From contig CAVTUQ010000019.1 of the NCBI GenBank assembly GCA_963737905.1, forward strand, positions 136,837-200,836: a DNA stretch of 64,000 bases, read 5' to 3'. This DNA comes from an uncultured delta proteobacterium. Its GTDB lineage: Bacteria > Desulfobacterota > Binatia > UBA9968. The notes below the pieces were generated by a model that had not been told where the DNA came from, did not search any database, and worked only from the letters and a program-made list of their open reading frames with translations. Position 1 is the first letter of the stretch. Every line of letters begins with the position of its first letter. This document shows, piece after piece, positions 55,462-61,812 of the stretch. The translations under genes and the position numbers were made by a program.

Positions 55462-56025
55462 ATGACGAGACGTGCCCTGTTGCAGAGTGTGTTTGCATCC
55501 GCGATTTGGACCTTATTCAAGGATCTCGCTTTTGCGGCCCAGCCGCCATCAATGAAGGACATCGAGAATTTGCAGAAAAACTGGAAGGCGCTATTGGCTG
55601 ACGGGACCAAGTTGCCGTCGCCTTCCGATCCGCTCAAGCTGTCGAAAGAAGAATGGCGCAAGCGTCTGAACCCAACGCAATTCAATATCCTGCGCGAGGA
55701 AGGTACCGAGCCCCCCGGCACGAGCCCTCTGAACAACGAAAAGCGGCCCGGCGTATTCGTTTGCGTCGGCTGCAACCTGGCCCTTTTTACCTCCGATATG
55801 AAATACGAGAGCGGCACCGGCTGGCCGAGCTTCTTCACCACGATTCCGGGCGCCTTCGCCAACAAAACGGATTACAAACTGATTCTGCCGCGGAGCGAAT
55901 ACCACTGCATCCGTTGCGGCGGCCACCACGGCCATGTCTTCGACGACGGCCCGCCGCCGACGGGGAAGCGCTGGTGCAACAACGGCGTGGCTTTAAAATT
56001 TATCCCCAAAAGCGGCAGCGCATAA
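55462..56025 (+). CDS. msrB: peptide-methionine (R)-S-oxide reductase MsrB with twin-arginine signal peptide
   Basis: MTRRALLQSVFASAIWTLFKDLAFA (Tat-like). SelR domain with CVGC / CIRC zinc sites, GHVFDDGP and catalytic RWCNNG. Confidence 0.85.
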   Translation: MTRRALLQSVFASAIWTLFKDLAFAAQPPSMKDIENLQKNWKALLADGTKLPSPSDPLKLSKEEWRKRLNPTQFNILREEGTEPPGTSPLNNEKRPGVFVCVGCNLALFTSDMKYESGTGWPSFFTTIPGAFANKTDYKLILPRSEYHCIRCGGHHGHVFDDGPPPTGKRWCNNGVALKFIPKSGSA

Positions 56026-56074
56026 CCAGTAAGGATTGAGACGACTTCCGAGTCGTTTCAATCCGATGTTCAAG
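56020..56074 (+). repeat. attC-like site 0 (weakest): GCATAAC ... GTTCAAG
   Basis: Overlaps the msrB TAA stop. 14-bp stem GGATTGAGACGACT / AGTCGTTTCAATCC with one G:T (56033-64). Shares AACCA and TTGAGACG with sites 1 and 2. Confidence 0.4.
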
Positions 56075-56361
56075 AAGCCCGTGGTTGAGGCAGGCGGGAT
56101 CAATATAAGGGAAATGGTTGTGGTGGGCGGTTTGCGCCGAAGGAAGAGAAGGTTAAATTACACGGTGGACTTCGGCTCGCGGTAGAAATGGGCGCGGTAG
56201 AGTTTGCTCGGGTTTAGTTTTTTCTCCTTGAATTCCCACAACAAGAGAGACTCGGAACGATACCATCGGTAACGTGAGCGCACTTCGGCGCCTGCGCTCT
56301 GATTTCAAAGCAATACAGCAGAGACAAACCGCGAGACGATTATCAGGTTGAGCGAACTTTT

Positions 56362-57453
56362 TTATCCCGAGCGGCGCAGAATTTTGAACGGCGGCAGCAC
56401 CGAGCGTAGCTTCAGCAACCCGCCACAACTTGGGCAGGCAGTGCGTTTTGGAGGGTCGATCTCGGGGACCGGCAAATCGACAGCGAAACCGTAACTTAAT
56501 TCGATCAGGCCACGAATCCGATCGAGCGGGATCTTGCAGTTGGGATTCATAAAGCCGTAGTAGCGGATTTTCATGAAGCCAGTGGGCAGCACATGCTGCA
56601 AGAAGCGGCGGATGAACTCCATAACATCAAGAGCCAAGATTCTGGAGCGCTGGCTGTGAGGCTTGCGATAGCGAATCAGCACGGTGCGGTCCTGGACGCC
56701 AAGGATGCGCGAGTTGGAGATGGCGACTTTGAAGACGTAGGGAGCGAGGTATTTGAGGCAGGCCTCACTGGAGGAGACCGCTTGGCAGTTGACGTTCCAG
56801 GCGATTTGCCAGACATCGTTGGGAATTTGATCGAACAATTTTGCTTGTTTCATCAGATCGCGGAACTTGGCCCTAAAGATGATCGAGAGCGCTTTGACCG
56901 GCAGAAAGAAATCGATTCGGGAAGGATGCCAAGAGCCATCCAATGAACGCATAGCGCCACCCGAAACGATGTAGTGGATGTGGGGATGGTACTGAAGAGT
57001 TCGTCCCCAGGTGTGCAGCACACCGAAGAAGCCTGGGAGATCGGCACCGATGTGTTTGGGATCAGTGGCGAGCTTTTTGATCGCCGCAGAAGAGGACTTG
57101 AACAGAGCCGAGTAACCGAGGCGCTGGTGTTGGCGGATGAAGGAACGCAATTTTTCTGGAACGGTAAACGTGATCAGGAAGTGATGGCCTGGGAGTTGGC
57201 GCTGGATCTGGGTTTGGAGCCACTGTTGGGATTTGTTGTACTGGCAGGTGGGACAGTGGCGATTGCCACAGGAAACGAAGAACTGTTGCGGCTCAGCACA
57301 GCCCTCGCACTGATAGAAAGCGATCCCGCAAGCCTCGGTGCGACAAGCGATGATGGCATCGATGACTTTACGATGGCTGCTGGGCATGGTCGTAGCATAG
57401 CGTTGGAGATACTCGGGGCCGAAGGTGGAAAAGATTTCACGAATGGAGGTCAT
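56362..57453 (-). CDS. IS91-family Y2 (HUH rolling-circle) transposase
   Basis: N-terminal Zn-binding CEGC...CGNRHCPTCQ, HUH motif HPHIHYIV, and Y2 motif YLAPYVFKVAIS. Confidence 0.85.
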   Translation of the reverse strand: MTSIREIFSTFGPEYLQRYATTMPSSHRKVIDAIIACRTEACGIAFYQCEGCAEPQQFFVSCGNRHCPTCQYNKSQQWLQTQIQRQLPGHHFLITFTVPEKLRSFIRQHQRLGYSALFKSSSAAIKKLATDPKHIGADLPGFFGVLHTWGRTLQYHPHIHYIVSGGAMRSLDGSWHPSRIDFFLPVKALSIIFRAKFRDLMKQAKLFDQIPNDVWQIAWNVNCQAVSSSEACLKYLAPYVFKVAISNSRILGVQDRTVLIRYRKPHSQRSRILALDVMEFIRRFLQHVLPTGFMKIRYYGFMNPNCKIPLDRIRGLIELSYGFAVDLPVPEIDPPKRTACPSCGGLLKLRSVLPPFKILRRSG

Positions 57454-58324
57454 GATCGAGTCCCTCCATCACGTGATTGATCAACTGACAGGCATCTTCC
57501 TGACCCTTCTGGGTCAGGTGGAGATAGAGCATGGTGGTTTCGAGACGGGAGTGGCCCAGGTAGCGTTGGATGACGCGCAGGTTGACGCCGGCTTCGAGGA
57601 GATGGGTGGCGTAGGAGTGGCGCAGGGTGTGGACCGCAACGCCCTTTTTGTTCACGCCGGCGTCCCGCTTGGCTTGGCGAAAGGCGCTCTGGAGGGTGCT
57701 CTTGGCCATGGGTTGGGTAGCCTGATGGGCATCGGTTTTTTTGTGGCCGCGAGCGGGGAAAACAAGCCGAGGATGGCGATGAGTGAGCCAGTATTGGCGC
57801 AGCAGATGGAGTGTGGGCTGGGGCAGAGCGACGTAGCGGTCCTTGGCGCCCTTGCCGCGGTGGACATGGATCATCATGCGCTTACTGTCGATATCGGAGA
57901 CTTCGAGGTGGCGGGCTTCGTCAAGGCGCAGGCCGCAGGAGTAGACGGTGGAGAGAAAGACGTGGTGGGGAGAGTTTTTAACCTGGGCCAGAAGGCTTCG
58001 GACTTCTTCGACGCTTAAGACAGCGGGCAGGCGGTGTTCGTTCTGGGCGCGCAGAATCGACAGGATGTGCCAGTCGCGCGCTAGCACATGGACGTAGAAA
58101 AAACGAATACCGCAGTAGCAGATGCGCATCGTCTTGGGCGCCCAGCGGTTGACGTTTTTGCGATGCAGAAAGTATTCTTGGAGCTCGGGTTCGGAGACGA
58201 GATCGGGCGTTTTCTCGTAAAACTCAGAGAGCATCCGTACCGCGCGGGTATAGGCTTTCTGGGTGGGTTCTCCTTTCCCATTGAGTTGCAGGATGGCGAT
58301 CATCCGTGGATACCAATCGTTCAT
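57437..58324 (-). CDS. tyrosine recombinase (phage-integrase family), IS91-associated type
   Basis: R..HxxR..Y catalytic set (GLRLDEARHL, HTLRHSYATHLL, LGHSRLETTMLYLH). Its stop overlaps the transposase start by 17 nt. It lacks the long IntI-specific insertion. Confidence 0.8.
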   Translation of the reverse strand: MNDWYPRMIAILQLNGKGEPTQKAYTRAVRMLSEFYEKTPDLVSEPELQEYFLHRKNVNRWAPKTMRICYCGIRFFYVHVLARDWHILSILRAQNEHRLPAVLSVEEVRSLLAQVKNSPHHVFLSTVYSCGLRLDEARHLEVSDIDSKRMMIHVHRGKGAKDRYVALPQPTLHLLRQYWLTHRHPRLVFPARGHKKTDAHQATQPMAKSTLQSAFRQAKRDAGVNKKGVAVHTLRHSYATHLLEAGVNLRVIQRYLGHSRLETTMLYLHLTQKGQEDACQLINHVMEGLDHDLHS

Positions 58325-58425
58325 AAAGTTCTCCTTCCGAAATAAGATAGGAGAGCTTATCGAACAACGATGGTGGTGGGACAGGAACGAATGTCAGGGC
58401 GAATTAACTGCCGCGGAGCGGCTTA

Positions 58426-58485
58426 CTTGAACCATTGGGTTGAGACGGTCGCGGCAGACCGCGCCTCTCACCCACAACGTTAGAC
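58426..58485 (+). repeat. attC-like site 1: CTTGAAC ... GTTAGAC (60 bp)
   Basis: Arms CATTGGGTTGAGACGGTCGCGG / CCGCGCCTCTCACCCACAAC pair around the loop CAGA, with three single-base bulges on the left arm. Confidence 0.6.
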
Positions 58486-58616
58486 AGCCGAAAGTCAGGA
58501 GAGCGCCGATGATGGATCCGATCAGACGCAAAATCCTTCAAACAGGCGGCGCGGCAACGGTGATAATCGCAGCGCGGCGAGTGTTTGGTCAGCAAACTGC
58601 ACAAGGAGGAGCTGCA

Positions 58617-59372
58617 ATGTCGTTCTACAAAAAAGGCCCCGTTTGCATTCAATATGAGGAGGCCGGTTCTGGCTTCCCGTTGTTGCTCGTTCCTGGCGGG
58701 GGATTGAACTCGACGATCGCCGGCTTGAAACGCGGCGGGCCTTTCAATGCGATCGAAGAGTTCAAGGGAGAATACAGCTGCATCTTCTCGGACATGCGCA
58801 ACGCCAATGGCGGTCAGTCCTACGGCCCACTTGAGATCGATCGGCCGTGGGATGCCTATACCGATGACCATATCGGTGTGATGGATCATTTAGGAATAGA
58901 CAAGTTCATGGTCATGGGCTTCTGTATCGGCGGTCCGTTGATTTGGAACCTTCTGAAGCGGGCACCCGATCGCATCGTCGCAGCCGTGCTGGCACAGCCC
59001 AGCGGATTCCGCCCGGAGCTGCCCAACCACTCGTACGACAACAACATCAAGGGTTGGGGCCCCGAGCTGGTCAAGCGCCGGCCCGACATCACGATGGAGA
59101 TGGTCGACAAATTTCTAACCAAGATGTACCGCACCAACCCCGACTTCGTCTGGACTGTGACACGCGATTTCGTGCGCAATTGCCGGACGCCGGTGCTGAT
59201 CCTGCCGGATGATACCCCGCCGCATCCGTACGTCGTCGCCATGGAGGCCGCCATGCTTGCGCCGAAGGCAGAAGTGAGCATGTTCCCGTGGAAGGAGCCG
59301 AAGGAACGGATTCCCCTGGCGGTGCGCCAGATACGTTCCTTCCTCCGGGCGCACCGGCTCGCTTCTGTTTAG
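58617..59372 (+). CDS. alpha/beta-fold hydrolase
   Basis: Start moved to MSFYKKGPVCIQYEEAGSGFPLLLVPGGG behind AAGGAGGAG. Nucleophile-elbow-like MGFCIGG. The ORF-track start at 58440 lies inside the repeat. Confidence 0.7.
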   Translation: MSFYKKGPVCIQYEEAGSGFPLLLVPGGGLNSTIAGLKRGGPFNAIEEFKGEYSCIFSDMRNANGGQSYGPLEIDRPWDAYTDDHIGVMDHLGIDKFMVMGFCIGGPLIWNLLKRAPDRIVAAVLAQPSGFRPELPNHSYDNNIKGWGPELVKRRPDITMEMVDKFLTKMYRTNPDFVWTVTRDFVRNCRTPVLILPDDTPPHPYVVAMEAAMLAPKAEVSMFPWKEPKERIPLAVRQIRSFLRAHRLASV

Positions 59373-59435
59373 ACGGAGGCGTCAGTACCAGAAGGCCGTC
59401 GACGCCAGGTGACCGCATGAAACCTTTCTTACGCC

Positions 59436-59495
59436 GTCTAACCATTGGGTTGAGAATGACGCGGCAGAGCGCCCCTCTCATCCATGGCGTCAGAC
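59436..59495 (+). repeat. attC-like site 2: GTCTAAC ... GTCAGAC (60 bp)
   Basis: Same length as site 1, sharing AACCATTGGGTTGAGA, CGCGGCAGA and CCTCTCA in the same order. The arms pair with bulges. Confidence 0.6.
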
Positions 59496-59499
59496 GTCA

Positions 59500-59996
59500 G
59501 TCTCAGTCAACAGGTTACGGAGGTGGCTATGGAACCCAACTGCACACCGATGCTGATAAGTACCAGGCCGGAATGGGAGGCGCGTCACAAAAAAGCGAGG
59601 ACCTGTTGCAACTTGTGTATGGGATAACAGTGGAGGCTTGGAGTTAGCGGAAAGATTCTGGGACGCGGCTATTGCGGTTGATCCAGAAGCTAAACGAACT
59701 GGGGATAGCGTTATGGATCACCAAGTGCGCTTTCAGATTTGTGGACCGCCACTGGTTTTGCGAATGTTGAAACAAAGGCCCTGATTATTCCTATGGAGTT
59801 TACTTCCTTCGAGGATTTGTGGCGCATTGAGTCGAATGCCCAGGGACCGCCTAAACTTTATATCAGTACTCTCTCTGAGCATCGCCAACAGGCATTGAAG
59901 GAGCGACTACGCACGGATATTCTTGGTAATCGCCCTGATGGATCGATTATGCTTAGTGCCAAGGCTTGGGCAGTGCGCGGGGTGGTACCGGCATAG
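59500..59996 (+). pseudogene. 5'-truncated, multiply frameshifted class I SAM-methyltransferase remnant
   Basis: Three frames join to LHTDADKYQAGM | RRVTKKRGPVATCVWDNSGGLELAERFWDAAIAVDPEAKRTGD | YGSPSALSDLWTATGFANVE...FTSFEDLW...DGSIMLSAKAWAVRG, a recognisable MTase C-terminal half. Confidence 0.55.
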
Positions 59997-60032
59997 AATT
60001 TTTCCGCGGACTGGTTTTTCGCAAAACGGAGC

Positions 60033-60089
60033 GTCTAACTTGGCCTCAGACCGATCGCTTACAGCGCCGGCTGAGCGTGAACGTTGGCC
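60033..60089 (+). repeat. attC-like site 3: GTCTAAC ... GTTGGCC (57 bp)
   Basis: Canonical inverse core. Arms GCCTCAG / CTGAGC and CGCT / AGCG pair around TAC. Confidence 0.5.
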
Positions 60090-60111
60090 TTCAAATTACC
60101 GAAGTTTGCTT

Positions 60112-60828
60112 ATGAAAATATTTCTGTCGCATCGCAGCCGAGATAAGGCGTTGGTCCGTGAGTTTAGGGACCTACTGCCAAGGTTCTTAGACGCTTGGCT
60201 CGACGAGGAAAGGCTTTCGTGGGGCGATTCCTTCCCAGGAGAGCTGAAGTCGAGCATTCAGTCGGGGGTCGATTTCTTAATCATATTCCTGGACAGGGAG
60301 GCGCTTAGTTCGGCATGGGTGAAACAGGAACTCCAATGGGCAATCGAACGCGAAAAGGAATTGAAGAGGACGTTTATCCTGCCCATCCTGCTCGAAGAAG
60401 TTTCTCCTGAAAATCTGCCCACTGAGTTTTCCACGCGATTATACCTTCGACTGGACGATTTCAGCCGTGCGTCGGTTGAGGCATTGGCGACCAGAGCGAC
60501 ACTACAACTGTTTCGTTTGGTTGTCGAAAGTTTCTCAGCTGTCCAGCTCGAAATACCGCGTCGCGAATCGCTCAACGCAATCCGTGACGGGCTTAGTGCA
60601 GGGCAGGCTCGTCTGCTAGGGTATATAGTCCGACAATGCAGTGATGGCTCAGAGCTGACGCAACGCGAGATCGAGACTGCAATGGGACACGCCCATGGCT
60701 CAGCAGAACTCTTTTACCGACTGGAATCGCTGATCGCACAAGGTTTCCTATTGAAGCGGCGCATAGCGGCAGATGGACAGTTTTCATATCGACTAAGCAA
60801 GGACTTTGGGGAGTTACGAGAAGGCTAA
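60112..60828 (+). CDS. TIR-domain protein with C-terminal winged-helix (wHTH) domain
   Basis: Start moved to MKIFLSHRSRDKALV. TIR_2-like motifs FLSH.S.D, DFLIIFL, SSAWVKQELQWA (conserved Glu), FILPILL. C-terminal LTQREIETAM...LFYRLESLIAQGFLLKRR..GQFSYRLS. Confidence 0.7.
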   Translation: MKIFLSHRSRDKALVREFRDLLPRFLDAWLDEERLSWGDSFPGELKSSIQSGVDFLIIFLDREALSSAWVKQELQWAIEREKELKRTFILPILLEEVSPENLPTEFSTRLYLRLDDFSRASVEALATRATLQLFRLVVESFSAVQLEIPRRESLNAIRDGLSAGQARLLGYIVRQCSDGSELTQREIETAMGHAHGSAELFYRLESLIAQGFLLKRRIAADGQFSYRLSKDFGELREG

Positions 60829-60910
60829 CCAAGCGTTGGACCGAACGGTGAATAGCGGCGATCGTGATGGCAGCGATTTTTCGCGCCGCCGGTCAACTCG
60901 GCTGTTAAGC
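60823..60910 (+). repeat. attC-like site 4: GGCTAAC ... GTTAAGC (88 bp)
   Basis: Overlaps the TAA stop of the TIR gene. GTTG[G]ACCG pairs with CGGTCAAC (bulged G), and GCGGCG pairs with CGCCGC. Confidence 0.5.
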
Positions 60911-60970: not shown

Positions 60971-61812
60971 ATGACAACCATCAACCAAAATCGCACGCGA
61001 ATGAACGACGCTCTTGATCCCTCATCTATCCTCCAAACCGCTTTCGGTTTTTGGCATTCCAAAGTCCTGCTCACGGCCGTCGAGTTCGGTGTGTTCACGA
61101 AACTCGCCGGTCGCCGTCTCACCGGCGCCACCCAGCGGCGCATCGGACGATTCGAGTTGGCGAACGGCGGTACGATCTTTCTCGACGAGGTTACCGAGTT
61201 GCCCATCGATACGCAGGTCAAGCTGTGCGCGTGCTGCAAGAAGGAGAGTTCGAACGAGTCGGAAGCAGCAGACGATCAAAGTCGATGTGCGCGCCATCGC
61301 CGCCACCAATCGAGCTCAATGAGGTTGTGAAGAACGGAACCTTTCGGTCGGATCTTTTTTACCGGCTCAACGTGTTTCCTCTGAGGGTGTCGGCGCTGCG
61401 CGAACGGAAAGATGATATTTCGCTCCTGGTCAATTTCTTTCTGAGCAAATTTGGCAAGAAATTGGGTAAAGAGGTGCGGGGTGTCTCTCAGAGATCGATG
61501 GATAGTTTGGTCAACTACGACTGGCCGGGAAACGTGCGTGAATTACAAAACATCATTGAGCGCGCGGTGGTGCTCGCCGCGGGTCCGATCGTCCAGATCG
61601 ACGACTCGATGATGCGCTCCGGTGAAGCGGCGCAGGAGTCGGCCCTCGATACGCTTGAGAATGCTGAACGCAATCACGTCCTGCGGGCGTTGTACGAAAC
61701 CCATTGGATTGTTCACGGCAAGAAGGGCGCGGCGGAGATCCTTGGGATCAACCCCAGTACCTTGCGATCGCGGATGGAGAAGCTTGGAATAAGGCGGCCA
61801 GCGCAATCGTAA
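60971..61812 (+). pseudogene. chimeric remnant: O-methyltransferase dimerisation-domain fragment fused to a 5'-truncated, frameshifted sigma-54 activator
   Basis: [33 protein letters not shown] (OMT N-terminus) runs at about 61130 into [20 protein letters not shown] (Walker B). At least 3 frame changes follow (61225-61320) before FRSDLFYRLNVFPL...WPGNVRELQN...HTH. Confidence 0.7.

What the first reader, a model, noticed from the sequence alone, without database searches (positions are those of the whole stretch)
56068..58432. IS91-family transposase plus overlapping tyrosine recombinase fills exactly one cassette slot
- **Gene pair.** The 363-aa Y2/HUH transposase (HPHIH, YLAPYVFKVAIS) and the 295-aa tyrosine recombinase overlap by 17 nt. 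Both are on the strand opposite to the array. ISfinder describes an IS91 subgroup with an upstream tyrosine-recombinase ORF.
- **Flanks.** The pair is flanked by perfectly inverted GTTCAAG (56068-56074) and CTTGAAC (58426-58432), extended to GTTCAAGAAGCC / GGCTTACTTGAAC.
- **Ambiguity.** IS91 needs GTTC/CTTG next to its ori end. The heptamers therefore serve both as attC cores and as an IS91 target.
- **Alternative reading.** Sites 1 (58426) and 2 (59436) could be ter-like ends. One-ended rolling-circle transposition would then have captured the alpha/beta hydrolase.
Basis: partly seen in the sequence, partly recalled or inferred. Interest (0 to 1): 0.6.

Follow-up and report, generated by a model that had tools for sequence, protein, structure and literature searches.

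The report
attC-targeting IS91 element, not a cassette
The gene pair is one 2.4-kb jumping gene of the IS91 family that carries its own integron-like hairpin and has landed backwards inside an integron recombination site (attC); its relatives in many uncultured bacteria prefer the same spot, a target rule I did not find in the papers I could search.

Summary
The sequence facts hold. There is a 363-aa IS91 transposase, a 295-aa tyrosine recombinase overlapping it by 17 nt, and inverted GTTCAAG/CTTGAAC at the stated coordinates.

The "one cassette slot" reading does not hold. Homology with copies in other genomes runs from about 56020-56027 to 58432. The unit therefore includes the left hairpin (56033-56064) and excludes the right one. 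Removing 56027-58432 rebuilds one intact attC directly after msrB.

The element is a 2,406-bp IS91-family insertion sequence. Its coding strand is continuous with the bottom strand of that attC, and it sits just 3' of the attC stem, at the GTT of the R'' box. Group IIC-attC introns use the same place and orientation.

Its termini (GTTCAAGTAAGCCGC ... GGCTTCTTGAAC-hairpin) are conserved in most of 80 loci from several phyla. The base next to the hairpin end is GTTA or GTTG in 66 of about 78 genuine ends. 29 of 52 complete insertions lie in attC-like sites, against 14% of control sites. The heptamers are the element's own inverted repeats, not attC cores.

Whether the HUH transposase or the IntI-like recombinase does the insertion is not settled.

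This scan has reported the same kind of element on other genomes. The papers I searched hold only passing hints.

The parts
56020..56026 (+). R'' box (GCATAAC) of the interrupted attC. It overlaps the msrB stop codon (56023-56025). On the element's strand it reads GTTATGC, the target abutting the oriIS end.
   Evidence: In 16 left junctions this heptamer varies as RYYYAAC while everything to its right is conserved. Joined to 58433-58485 it rebuilds a foldable attC.
56027..58432 (-). The whole IS91-family element, 2,406 bp. AAC occurs at both junctions, so each boundary is ambiguous by up to 3 nt.
   Evidence: Homology with G051, G026, G013, G076, G084 and other genomes starts at window 56020-56024 and stops at 58432-58434. 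Complete relatives are mostly 2.39-2.6 kb.
56027..56067 (-). Hairpin module at the oriIS end: spacer CAGTAA, a 14-bp stem with 4-nt loop (56033-56064), and spacer GAT.
   Evidence: The 32-nt hairpin is 100% identical in the second, 81%-identical copy on G000:C25. A hairpin at this position is present in most of the 80 distant loci. It folds with the R box in the circle junction.
56068..56079 (-). Right terminal inverted repeat GTTCAAGAAGCC (element strand GGCTTCTTGAAC).
   Evidence: Conserved as GGCTTCTTGAAC, with at most 2 changes, in L051-L130.
56362..57453 (-). tnpA: HUH-Y2 IS91-family transposase, 363 aa, intact.
   Evidence: Pfam Y2_Tnp and Zn_Tnp_IS91. NCBIfam NF033538 scores 361.6 bits against a cut-off of 125. 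HPHIH and YLAPY motifs are present.
57437..58324 (-). Tyrosine recombinase, 295 aa, of the Xer/IntI type. It overlaps tnpA by 17 nt.
   Evidence: Pfam. It is below every NCBIfam cut-off: XerA_Arch 172/220, integron integrase 169/265 in two stretches. The best solved relative is VchIntIA 2a3v, E 1.3e-33. It is 27% identical to the genome's own IntI, with about 43 alignment gaps, part of them over IntI's ALERKYP region.
58410..58432 (-). terIS end: subterminal palindrome GCCGC-GGA-GCGGC plus the left inverted repeat GGCTTACTTGAAC. On the element strand it begins GTTCAAGTAAGCCGC.
   Evidence: The 15-mer GTTCAAGTAAGCCGC is exact in most of the 80 loci. Flanks diverge immediately after it in nine genomes.
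58433..58485 (+). Remainder of the interrupted attC: spacer CATT, L''-loop-L' stem, and R' GTTAGAC.
   Evidence: It is a direct repeat of the next attC at 59440-59495. The same hairpin type recurs in many related genomes without the IS. It folds with 56020-56026.

Best explanation
Window 56027-58432 is one intact copy of a two-gene IS91-family insertion sequence.

Layout on its coding (minus) strand: 5'-GTTCAAGTAAGCC (terIS end with a small palindrome), recombinase, transposase, about 290 nt, GGCTTCTTGAAC, ATC, a 14-bp hairpin, TTACTG-3'.

Shown:
- The element is inserted inside the attC that follows msrB, between the R'' box and the rest of the site.
- Its coding strand is continuous with the attC bottom strand.
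- It has no target duplication beyond the shared GTT/AAC.
- The left hairpin is part of the element. That is why the region looks like a cassette slot.

Inferred mechanism:
- The element moves as single-stranded DNA, as IS91 does.
- The HUH-Y2 transposase recognises 'hairpin, short spacer, GTTN' at the element's own oriIS/terIS junction.
- A folded attC bottom strand offers the same shape (stem, 3-5 nt, GTTRRRY), so attC sites are preferred targets. Plain GTTA sites are used less often.
- The recombinase has an accessory role (termination, circle handling or resolution) that is not known.
For: Boundaries:
- Family-wide blastn gives homology from window 56020-56024 to 58432-58434 in independent genomes.
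- The junction table shows 16 left and 9 right junctions with unrelated flanks.

Empty site:
- Deleting the element rebuilds a foldable attC in the window, L022 and L023.

Family membership:
- NF033538 scores 361.6 bits against a cut-off of 125. The HUH and YxxxY motifs are present.

IS91 rules, from PMC13181058, are all matched:
- terIS lies upstream with a 5'-GTTC cleavage site and one subterminal palindrome.
- oriIS lies downstream with palindromes.
- A target tetranucleotide abuts oriIS.
- There is no target site duplication.
- A functional ssDNA circle exists.

Conservation:
- Termini are conserved in most of 80 loci with TnpA 52-90% identical, from Desulfobacterota, Binatia, Rokubacteria, Anaerolineales and Proteobacteria.

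Target:
- Next to the hairpin end the sequence is GTTA in 55 cases, GTTG in 11 and other GTTN in 4. About 78 of the 102 motif matches scanned are genuine ends; the rest are spurious matches inside tnpA.
- 29 of 52 non-redundant complete insertions lie just 3' of AAC-hairpin. Of 600 control GTTR sites, 86 do (odds ratio 7.5).
- In 25 of those 29 the extra-helical bases are on the 3' arm, and the 5' spacer is the longer in 18 against 2. That is the bottom-strand signature.

Precedent for this place and orientation:
- Group IIC-attC introns insert at the R'' of the attC bottom strand, opposite to the cassettes (PMC7923331).
Against: - No experiment is available. Which enzyme cuts and joins is inferred.
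- Tandem copies of the hairpin module in L059, L061, L063, L084 and L096 begin with G, not C (GTTGAAC). That places the crossover after the first base of GTT. This fits an IntI-like G|TT exchange at least as well as the cut placed before the tetranucleotide for IS91.
- The recombinase is closest to an integron integrase among solved structures, and the circle junction is a near-perfect attC mimic. Both would suit a recombinase-driven reaction.
- 23 of 52 insertions are not in recognisable attC sites, so the preference is not absolute.
- My attC rule is home-made, and the control flanks themselves contain attC arrays.
- The 52 insertions are not phylogenetically independent.
Confidence: 0.8

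Rival explanations
1. Self-inserting cassette. The HUH transposase makes a single-stranded circle. The element's own IntI-like tyrosine recombinase then recombines the folded attC-like junction (CTTGAAC, hairpin, GTTCAAG) with a folded resident attC, as IntI does with cassettes, but using the top strand of the target. That would give the reversed orientation at R''.
For: - The circle junction folds as a 7-bp R box plus a 14-bp L stem.
- Read on the window's + strand, the product has exactly the form of a canonical attC x attC product: xxxxAA|C, own hairpin, cargo, xxxxAA|C, target hairpin.
- The recombinase's best solved relative is VchIntIA.
- Tandem hairpin modules start with G of GTT, as expected for a G|TT crossover.
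Against: - 23 of 52 insertions lie at GTTA sites with no partner hairpin.
- The recombinase lacks the IntI-specific domain that reads extra-helical bases and misses the IntI cut-off.
- Every feature also fits the published IS91 plan.
- The IS91 transposase is intact and conserved in all full copies examined.
Confidence: 0.13
2. First reader's reading. The gene pair is a true integron cassette occupying one slot. It would run from TTCAAG (56069) to the G of GTTAGAC (58479), with the right hairpin as its attC, moved by IntI.
For: - GTTCAAG and CTTGAAC are perfectly complementary, as a cassette's first bases and its R'' box should be.
- The next cassette shows the same rule: GTTAGAC at 58479 and GTCTAAC at 59436.
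Against: - Copies in G051, G026, G013, G050, G084, G019, G037 and G005 carry different attC remainders after CTTGAAC.
- Copies always carry the left hairpin.
- The genes are on the strand opposite to the array.
- The same termini occur at non-attC sites in a Desulfobacterium chromosome.
Confidence: 0.03
3. History variant. The element did not jump into a resident attC here. It arrived together with the neighbouring cassettes by IS91-type one-ended transposition into a plain GTTA at the msrB stop codon. The rebuilt attC would then be partly accidental, and the integrase-less array would have been delivered by the IS.
For: - msrB is a core gene: 56 of 90 family genomes have it, and none of seven relatives examined has an attC after it.
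- Only AAC of the R'' box is needed to mimic an attC.
- IS91 relatives miss terIS in 1-14% of events (PMC13181058).
- The block lies on the terIS side, which is the side that one-ended events carry along.
Against: - No second locus shares both the IS and the adjacent cassettes.
- The far end of the block is a deletion-type gene fusion near 61130, not a GTTC-type end.
- No empty site was found to compare.
Confidence: 0.12

Closest known systems
IS91 family (IS91, IS801, IS1294, IS1294b)
   Same: - HUH-Y2 transposase with an N-terminal zinc domain.
- terIS lies upstream, beginning with GTTC next to a small palindrome.
- oriIS lies downstream with palindromes.
- The oriIS end abuts a GTTN target tetranucleotide.
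- No target duplication.
   Different: - An extra tyrosine-recombinase gene lies upstream.
- It has 12-bp terminal inverted repeats.
- The target is mostly GTTA or GTTG rather than GTTC or CTTG.
- It strongly prefers the bottom strand of attC hairpins.
- The TnpA is less than 41% identical to any plasmid-borne IS91 relative.
Two-gene IS91 members recorded in ISfinder (ISShvi3, ISWz1/ISMno24 type)
   Same: - A tyrosine recombinase lies directly upstream of the IS91 transposase.
[quoted passage not shown]
- Tandem ISWz1/ISMno24 annotations appear in PMC10973501.
   Different: - I could not compare sequences with ISfinder entries.
- That paper read the arrangement as a new cassette, not as attC targeting.
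- I found no statement of the target rule.
Group IIC-attC introns
   Same: They insert into the attC bottom strand at R'', just 3' of the folded stem, opposite to cassette transcription. They are also found in integrase-less arrays (PMC7923331).
   Different: They are retroelements with a ribozyme and reverse transcriptase. No Rfam family hits the window. Here the machinery is an HUH nuclease plus a tyrosine recombinase.
IS1111-attC group (IS110 family)
   Same: Insertion sequences that home to attC sites (mentioned in PMC9229058, and in PMC11187229, listed).
   Different: They use a DEDD transposase guided by an RNA. Family and ends are unrelated.
Integron gene cassette with attC
   Same: The circular junction of the element would be an attC look-alike. 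It has a 7-bp R box (CTTGAAC/GTTCAAG), an unpaired spacer, an L stem and an exchange point at GTT.
   Different: - It is inserted at R'' rather than R', and in reverse.
- It also occurs at non-attC sites.
- It encodes its own enzymes.
ISCR28 next to sul4
   Same: [quoted passage not shown] This may be the same resemblance between oriIS and attC.
   Different: It is a single-gene ISCR. The data were not shown, and I did not compare it here.

Membership tests
IS91 family insertion sequence | HUH-Y2 transposase (Y2_Tnp) with an N-terminal zinc-binding domain | tested here: met
   PF04986 scores 186 bits and PF14319 93 bits. NF033538 scores 361.6 bits against a cut-off of 125. HPHIH and YLAPY are present.
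IS91 family insertion sequence | Two different ends (terIS upstream, oriIS downstream), each with subterminal palindromes, and no target duplication | tested here: met
   Ends were defined by 16 left and 9 right junctions. The terIS palindrome is GCCGC-GGA-GCGGC at 58410-58422 and the oriIS hairpin is at 56033-56064. Only the shared AAC occurs at both junctions.
IS91 family insertion sequence | Specific tetranucleotide (GTTC or CTTG) abutting the oriIS end | tested here: inconclusive
   A GTTN tetranucleotide abuts the end in 70 of about 78 genuine ends, but it is GTTA (55) or GTTG (11) and only rarely GTTC (2). The rule is the same; the fourth base differs.
IS91 family insertion sequence | Rolling-circle or single-strand transposition with a circular intermediate | not testable with these tools
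   Needs junction PCR or transposition assays.
Integron gene cassette | The unit is bounded by G|TT of successive R' cores, carries its own attC at its 3' end, and has the same orientation as the array | tested here: not met
   The conserved unit runs 56027-58432, includes the left hairpin and excludes the right one. It is on the opposite strand and is inserted at R''.
Integron integrase (IntI), for the 295-aa recombinase | Scores above the TIGR02249 cut-off and has the IntI-specific additional domain | tested here: not met
   It scores 168.8 bits against a cut-off of 265, in two separate stretches. The alignment with the genome's own IntI (456 bits) is 27% identical with about 43 gaps, part of them over the ALERKYP region.
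Group IIC-attC intron | Group II ribozyme plus reverse transcriptase | tested here: not met
   No Rfam family reaches threshold in the window. The two ORFs are a transposase and a recombinase.
attC-targeting mobile element (functional class) | Independent insertions at the same position of different attC sites, above background | tested here: met
   Nine of 9 right junctions in the window's taxonomic family lie in different attC sites. Across phyla the figures are 29 of 52 insertions against 86 of 600 control GTTR sites. 25 of the 29 show the bottom-strand signature.

The most novel reading that the evidence does not exclude
The two enzymes work in series on single-stranded DNA. The HUH transposase peels off a circle. 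The IntI-like recombinase, which lacks the IntI insert, then recombines the circle's folded attC-like junction with folded attC sites. The element would be a self-mobilising cassette, and this IS91/recombinase lineage would be an evolutionary relative (ancestor or offshoot) of the integron IntI/attC system.
Probability: 0.13. Interest if true: 0.85.

Novelty: new variant of a known kind. Interest (0 to 1): 0.6.

Why it matters
- Two kinds of mobile element are known to home to integron attC sites: IS1111-attC elements and group IIC-attC introns. This adds a third with different machinery, an HUH nuclease plus a Xer/IntI-like recombinase. It appears in thousands of metagenomic protein clusters.
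- Its terminal hairpin, next to half of a split attC, looks like a complete attC. Integron annotation pipelines may therefore miscount cassettes and attC sites around these elements.
- Its recombinase can be mistaken for an integron integrase.
- It gives a concrete system for asking how single-strand nucleases and tyrosine recombinases recognise folded DNA.
- It also allows a test of whether IS91-type one-ended transposition moves integrase-less cassette arrays.

Tried and rejected
- Rfam scan of the window found nothing.
- A first attC classifier required the R boxes to pair in the minimum-energy fold. It rejected even the window's own attC, so I replaced it.
- A strict RYYYAAC...GTTRRRY scan of three G000 contigs missed the known sites. 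It flagged only two loci on C25, one of them the hairpin end of a second IS91 group. I did not use it.
- Looking for an empty site downstream of msrB failed. msrB turned out to be a core gene with unrelated downstream DNA in seven relatives.
- I planned a tree of the recombinase with IntI and Xer, but the genome offers no outgroup integrase, so I dropped it.
- DNA search of E. coli genomes gave no match. Plasmid searches gave only distant hits in coding sequence, with TnpA below 41% identity. A link to clinical integrons stated in earlier scan notes was therefore not confirmed here.
- Nine paper searches found no description of the target rule, only passing hints.
- The sequence could not be compared with ISfinder entries.
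Full report
**Observation**

The ORFs are as described. 56362-57453(-) encodes 363 aa and 57437-58324(-) encodes 295 aa, and they overlap by 17 nt.
- The first ORF is an IS91-family transposase. It matches Pfam Y2_Tnp and Zn_Tnp_IS91. It scores 361.6 bits on NCBIfam NF033538, whose cut-off is 125. The HPHIH and YLAPY motifs are present.
- The second is a tyrosine recombinase with a complete catalytic set.
- GTTCAAG (56068-56074), CTTGAAC (58426-58432) and their extensions are present.
- The bare heptamer occurs 18 times in the window against 8.8 expected. The pair means something only because of what follows.

**Where the unit really ends**

I searched 90 genomes of the same taxonomic family by blastn with window 55990-58500.
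- Matches start at window 56020-56024 and stop at 58432-58434 in G051 (84% over the full length), G026, G013, G076, G084, G050, G019, G037 and G005.
- The junction table shows 16 left junctions. They read [unrelated DNA]-RYYYAAC | C(A/C)NNAA-GGATTGAGACGAC..GTCGTTTCAATCC-NNN-GTTCAAGAAGCCCG.
- It also shows 9 right junctions. They read ...GCGGCTTACTTGAAC | [remainder of a different attC ending in GTTRRRY].
- One left junction (L044) comes from the unpublished genome G060. The other 15 do not.
- The statement that the right-hand hairpin type is widespread also rests partly on the unpublished genomes G018, G021 and G040.
- The left hairpin (56033-56064) therefore travels with the genes, and the right hairpin does not.
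- A second, truncated copy in the same genome (G000:C25, 81% identical) has the 32-nt hairpin unchanged, next to an unrelated upstream gene.
- A decayed stub lies 3.5 kb from the genome's only true intI on contig C7.

**What it interrupts**

Removing 56027-58432 joins GCATAAC to CATT-GGGTTGAGA...GTTAGAC.
- The result has the spacing of the neighbouring attC at 59436-59495 and folds at -14.8/-15.8 kcal/mol.
- The same reconstruction works for L022 and L023.
- The element therefore sits inside one attC, between R'' and the stem.
- The cassette genes are on the + strand and the element's genes are on the - strand. The element's coding strand is thus continuous with the attC bottom strand.

**Anatomy compared with IS91**

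On its own strand the element reads GTTCAAGTAAGCC-GC-TCC-GCGGC... recombinase, transposase ...GGCTTCTTGAAC-ATC-hairpin-TTACTG, followed by GTTATGC of the target.

PMC13181058 describes IS91 relatives as having:
- terIS upstream, with a 5'-GTTC cleavage site beside one palindrome;
- oriIS downstream, with palindromes;
- a target tetranucleotide abutting oriIS;
- no duplication;
- a functional single-stranded circle.

Every structural point is matched.

A second, distant group of recombinase-plus-transposase elements in this genome (C25, C1, C22; TnpA 31-38% identical, the C1 and C22 copies broken) has the same plan with other sequences. It reads GTTGAACTAAACCGC ... GCGGTTTAGTCCAAC-hairpin-CTATAC | GTTAGGC or GTTCGCC.

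**Breadth**

- A scan of one genome per species gave 171 relatives. 80 loci were kept, with TnpA 52-90% identical. They are mostly Desulfobacterota MAGs, but also Binatia, Rokubacteria, Anaerolineales, Beta- and Gammaproteobacteria and Accumulibacter.
- The closest record titles ('uncultured delta proteobacterium', 'Candidatus Binatia bacterium') suggest what the window's own organism is.
- The 15-mer GTTCAAGTAAGCCGC, and GGCTTCTTGAAC followed by a GGATTG...CAATCC-type hairpin, are present in most of these loci.
- One Desulfobacterium chromosome has at least 12 copies whose homology ends exactly after the hairpin spacer.
- The motif scan gave 102 matches, of which about 78 are genuine hairpin ends. 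The sequence next to the end is GTTA in 55, GTTG in 11, GTTT in 2 and GTTC in 2.
- Protein homologues fill thousands of metagenomic clusters. Many lie on contigs of 1.5-3.5 kb, as expected of repeats that break assemblies.
- Sequenced plasmids hold nothing closer than 41% TnpA identity, and E. coli genomes hold nothing at the DNA level.

**Target preference**

- Of 52 non-redundant complete insertions, 29 lie immediately 3' of AAC-(10 nt or fewer)-single hairpin.
- By the same rule, 86 of 600 control GTTR sites in the flanks qualify (odds ratio 7.5, Fisher p 7e-11).
- An independent hairpin-energy test agrees.
- The figures are rough. The rule is mine, the copies are related, and the control flanks contain attC arrays.
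- In 25 of the 29, the unpaired extra bases are on the 3' arm. The 5' spacer is longer than the 3' spacer in 18 cases against 2.
- By the established description of attC structure, which I recalled and re-derived from the attC of aadA7 rather than tested, this is the bottom-strand signature.
- The remaining 23 insertions are at GTTA-type sites without a recognisable attC.
- The rule is therefore 'GTTR, preferably just after a folded attC bottom strand'.
- Group IIC-attC introns use the same place and orientation (PMC7923331).

**Mechanism**

- Shown: the structure, the boundaries, the target position and the strand.
- Inferred: the transposase recognises 'hairpin, spacer, GTTN', which occurs both at the element's own circle junction and at attC bottom strands, on the same strand. 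That explains the preference without any help from IntI.
- Three observations keep a recombinase-driven route open.
  - The circle junction is a very good attC mimic, with a 7-bp R box plus a 14-bp stem (-25.8 kcal/mol).
  - The recombinase's best solved relative is VchIntIA. However, it misses the IntI cut-off and lacks the IntI insert.
  - Tandem hairpin modules in five loci begin GTTGAAC rather than CTTGAAC. That places the crossover after the first base of GTT.
- I rate the HUH route clearly more likely. Hairpin-less targets exist, and the published IS91 plan already accounts for everything else.

**How the block came to lie after msrB**

- msrB is a core gene in this family (56 of 90 genomes). 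Seven relatives have no attC after it.
- One possibility is that an array was already there and the element jumped into its first attC.
- The other is that the element and the cassettes on its terIS side arrived together by one-ended transposition into GTTA at the msrB stop codon.
- I could not decide between these.

**Literature and earlier notes**

- Nine full-text searches found no description of an attC target rule for IS91-type elements.
- Two passing remarks point the same way. [quoted passage not shown]
- After finishing my own analysis I looked at this scan's notes. Several earlier reports on other genomes reach the same conclusion for related elements.
- Their claim of a copy in a clinical E. 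coli integron was not reproduced here for this subfamily.

**Verdict**

The finding is real, but it is not a cassette. It is a member of a widespread, uncharacterised subgroup of the IS91 family that prefers integron attC sites and mimics them.

Noticed in passing
G000:C25:342500-345065, G000:C1:58690-61160, G000:C22:19800-22300: A second, distant group of recombinase-plus-IS91-transposase elements (TnpA 31-38% identical; the C1 and C22 copies are broken) has the same plan. It has ends GTTGAACTAAACCGC and GCGGTTTAGTCCAAC, then an 80-90-nt hairpin (CGTTTTATCCCC...GGGGATAAAACG) and CTATAC | GTTAGGC or GTTCGCC. The flanks I read for two of the three copies (C25, C1) did not look like attC sites. 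A strict attC scan flags the C25 hairpin end as attC-like.
   Followed up: partly
L059:4347-4470, L061:3093-3215, L063:4352-4475, L084:4172-4295, L096:2420-2571: The 3' hairpin module is duplicated in tandem: ...CTTGAAC-AAA-hairpin-TAAAG-GTTGAAC-AAA-hairpin-TAAAG-GTTATCC. The second unit starts with G, not C. The module therefore behaves like an ORF-less mini-cassette, with a crossover after the first base of GTT.
   Followed up: partly
L067:4440-4480; L099:4520-4540 compared with L094: Short repeats occur at the oriIS end. GTTATGG occurs four times in a row after the hairpin in L067. L099 has an extra GTTTGG relative to the otherwise identical L094. They may be scars of repeated nicking or joining at the end.
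   Followed up: no
L030-L036, L049 (and L044, from unpublished genome G060); G000:C7:230928-231211: Many loci keep only the hairpin end of the element (60-330 bp, no genes), each still attached to an RYYYAAC box. One such stub, with a fragment of the recombinase gene, lies 3.5 kb from the genome's only true intI. In L032 the stub is flanked by GCCTAAC on both sides and is followed directly by an attC stem.
   Followed up: partly
window 55462-56026 and 56020-60910: msrB is a core gene of this bacterial family (56 of 90 genomes), and seven relatives have no attC downstream. The integrase-less cassette array therefore starts at the stop codon of a housekeeping gene.
   Followed up: partly
window 61051-61200: The ORF after the last attC changes from an O-methyltransferase N-terminus (..[17 protein letters not shown]) to the RxGx[11 protein letters not shown] region of a sigma-54 activator near 61125-61135.
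   Followed up: no
window 56153-56428 (-): A 91-aa ORF overlaps the 3' end of tnpA and runs into the non-coding region before the hairpin. It matches no Pfam family and is probably not a gene.
   Followed up: no
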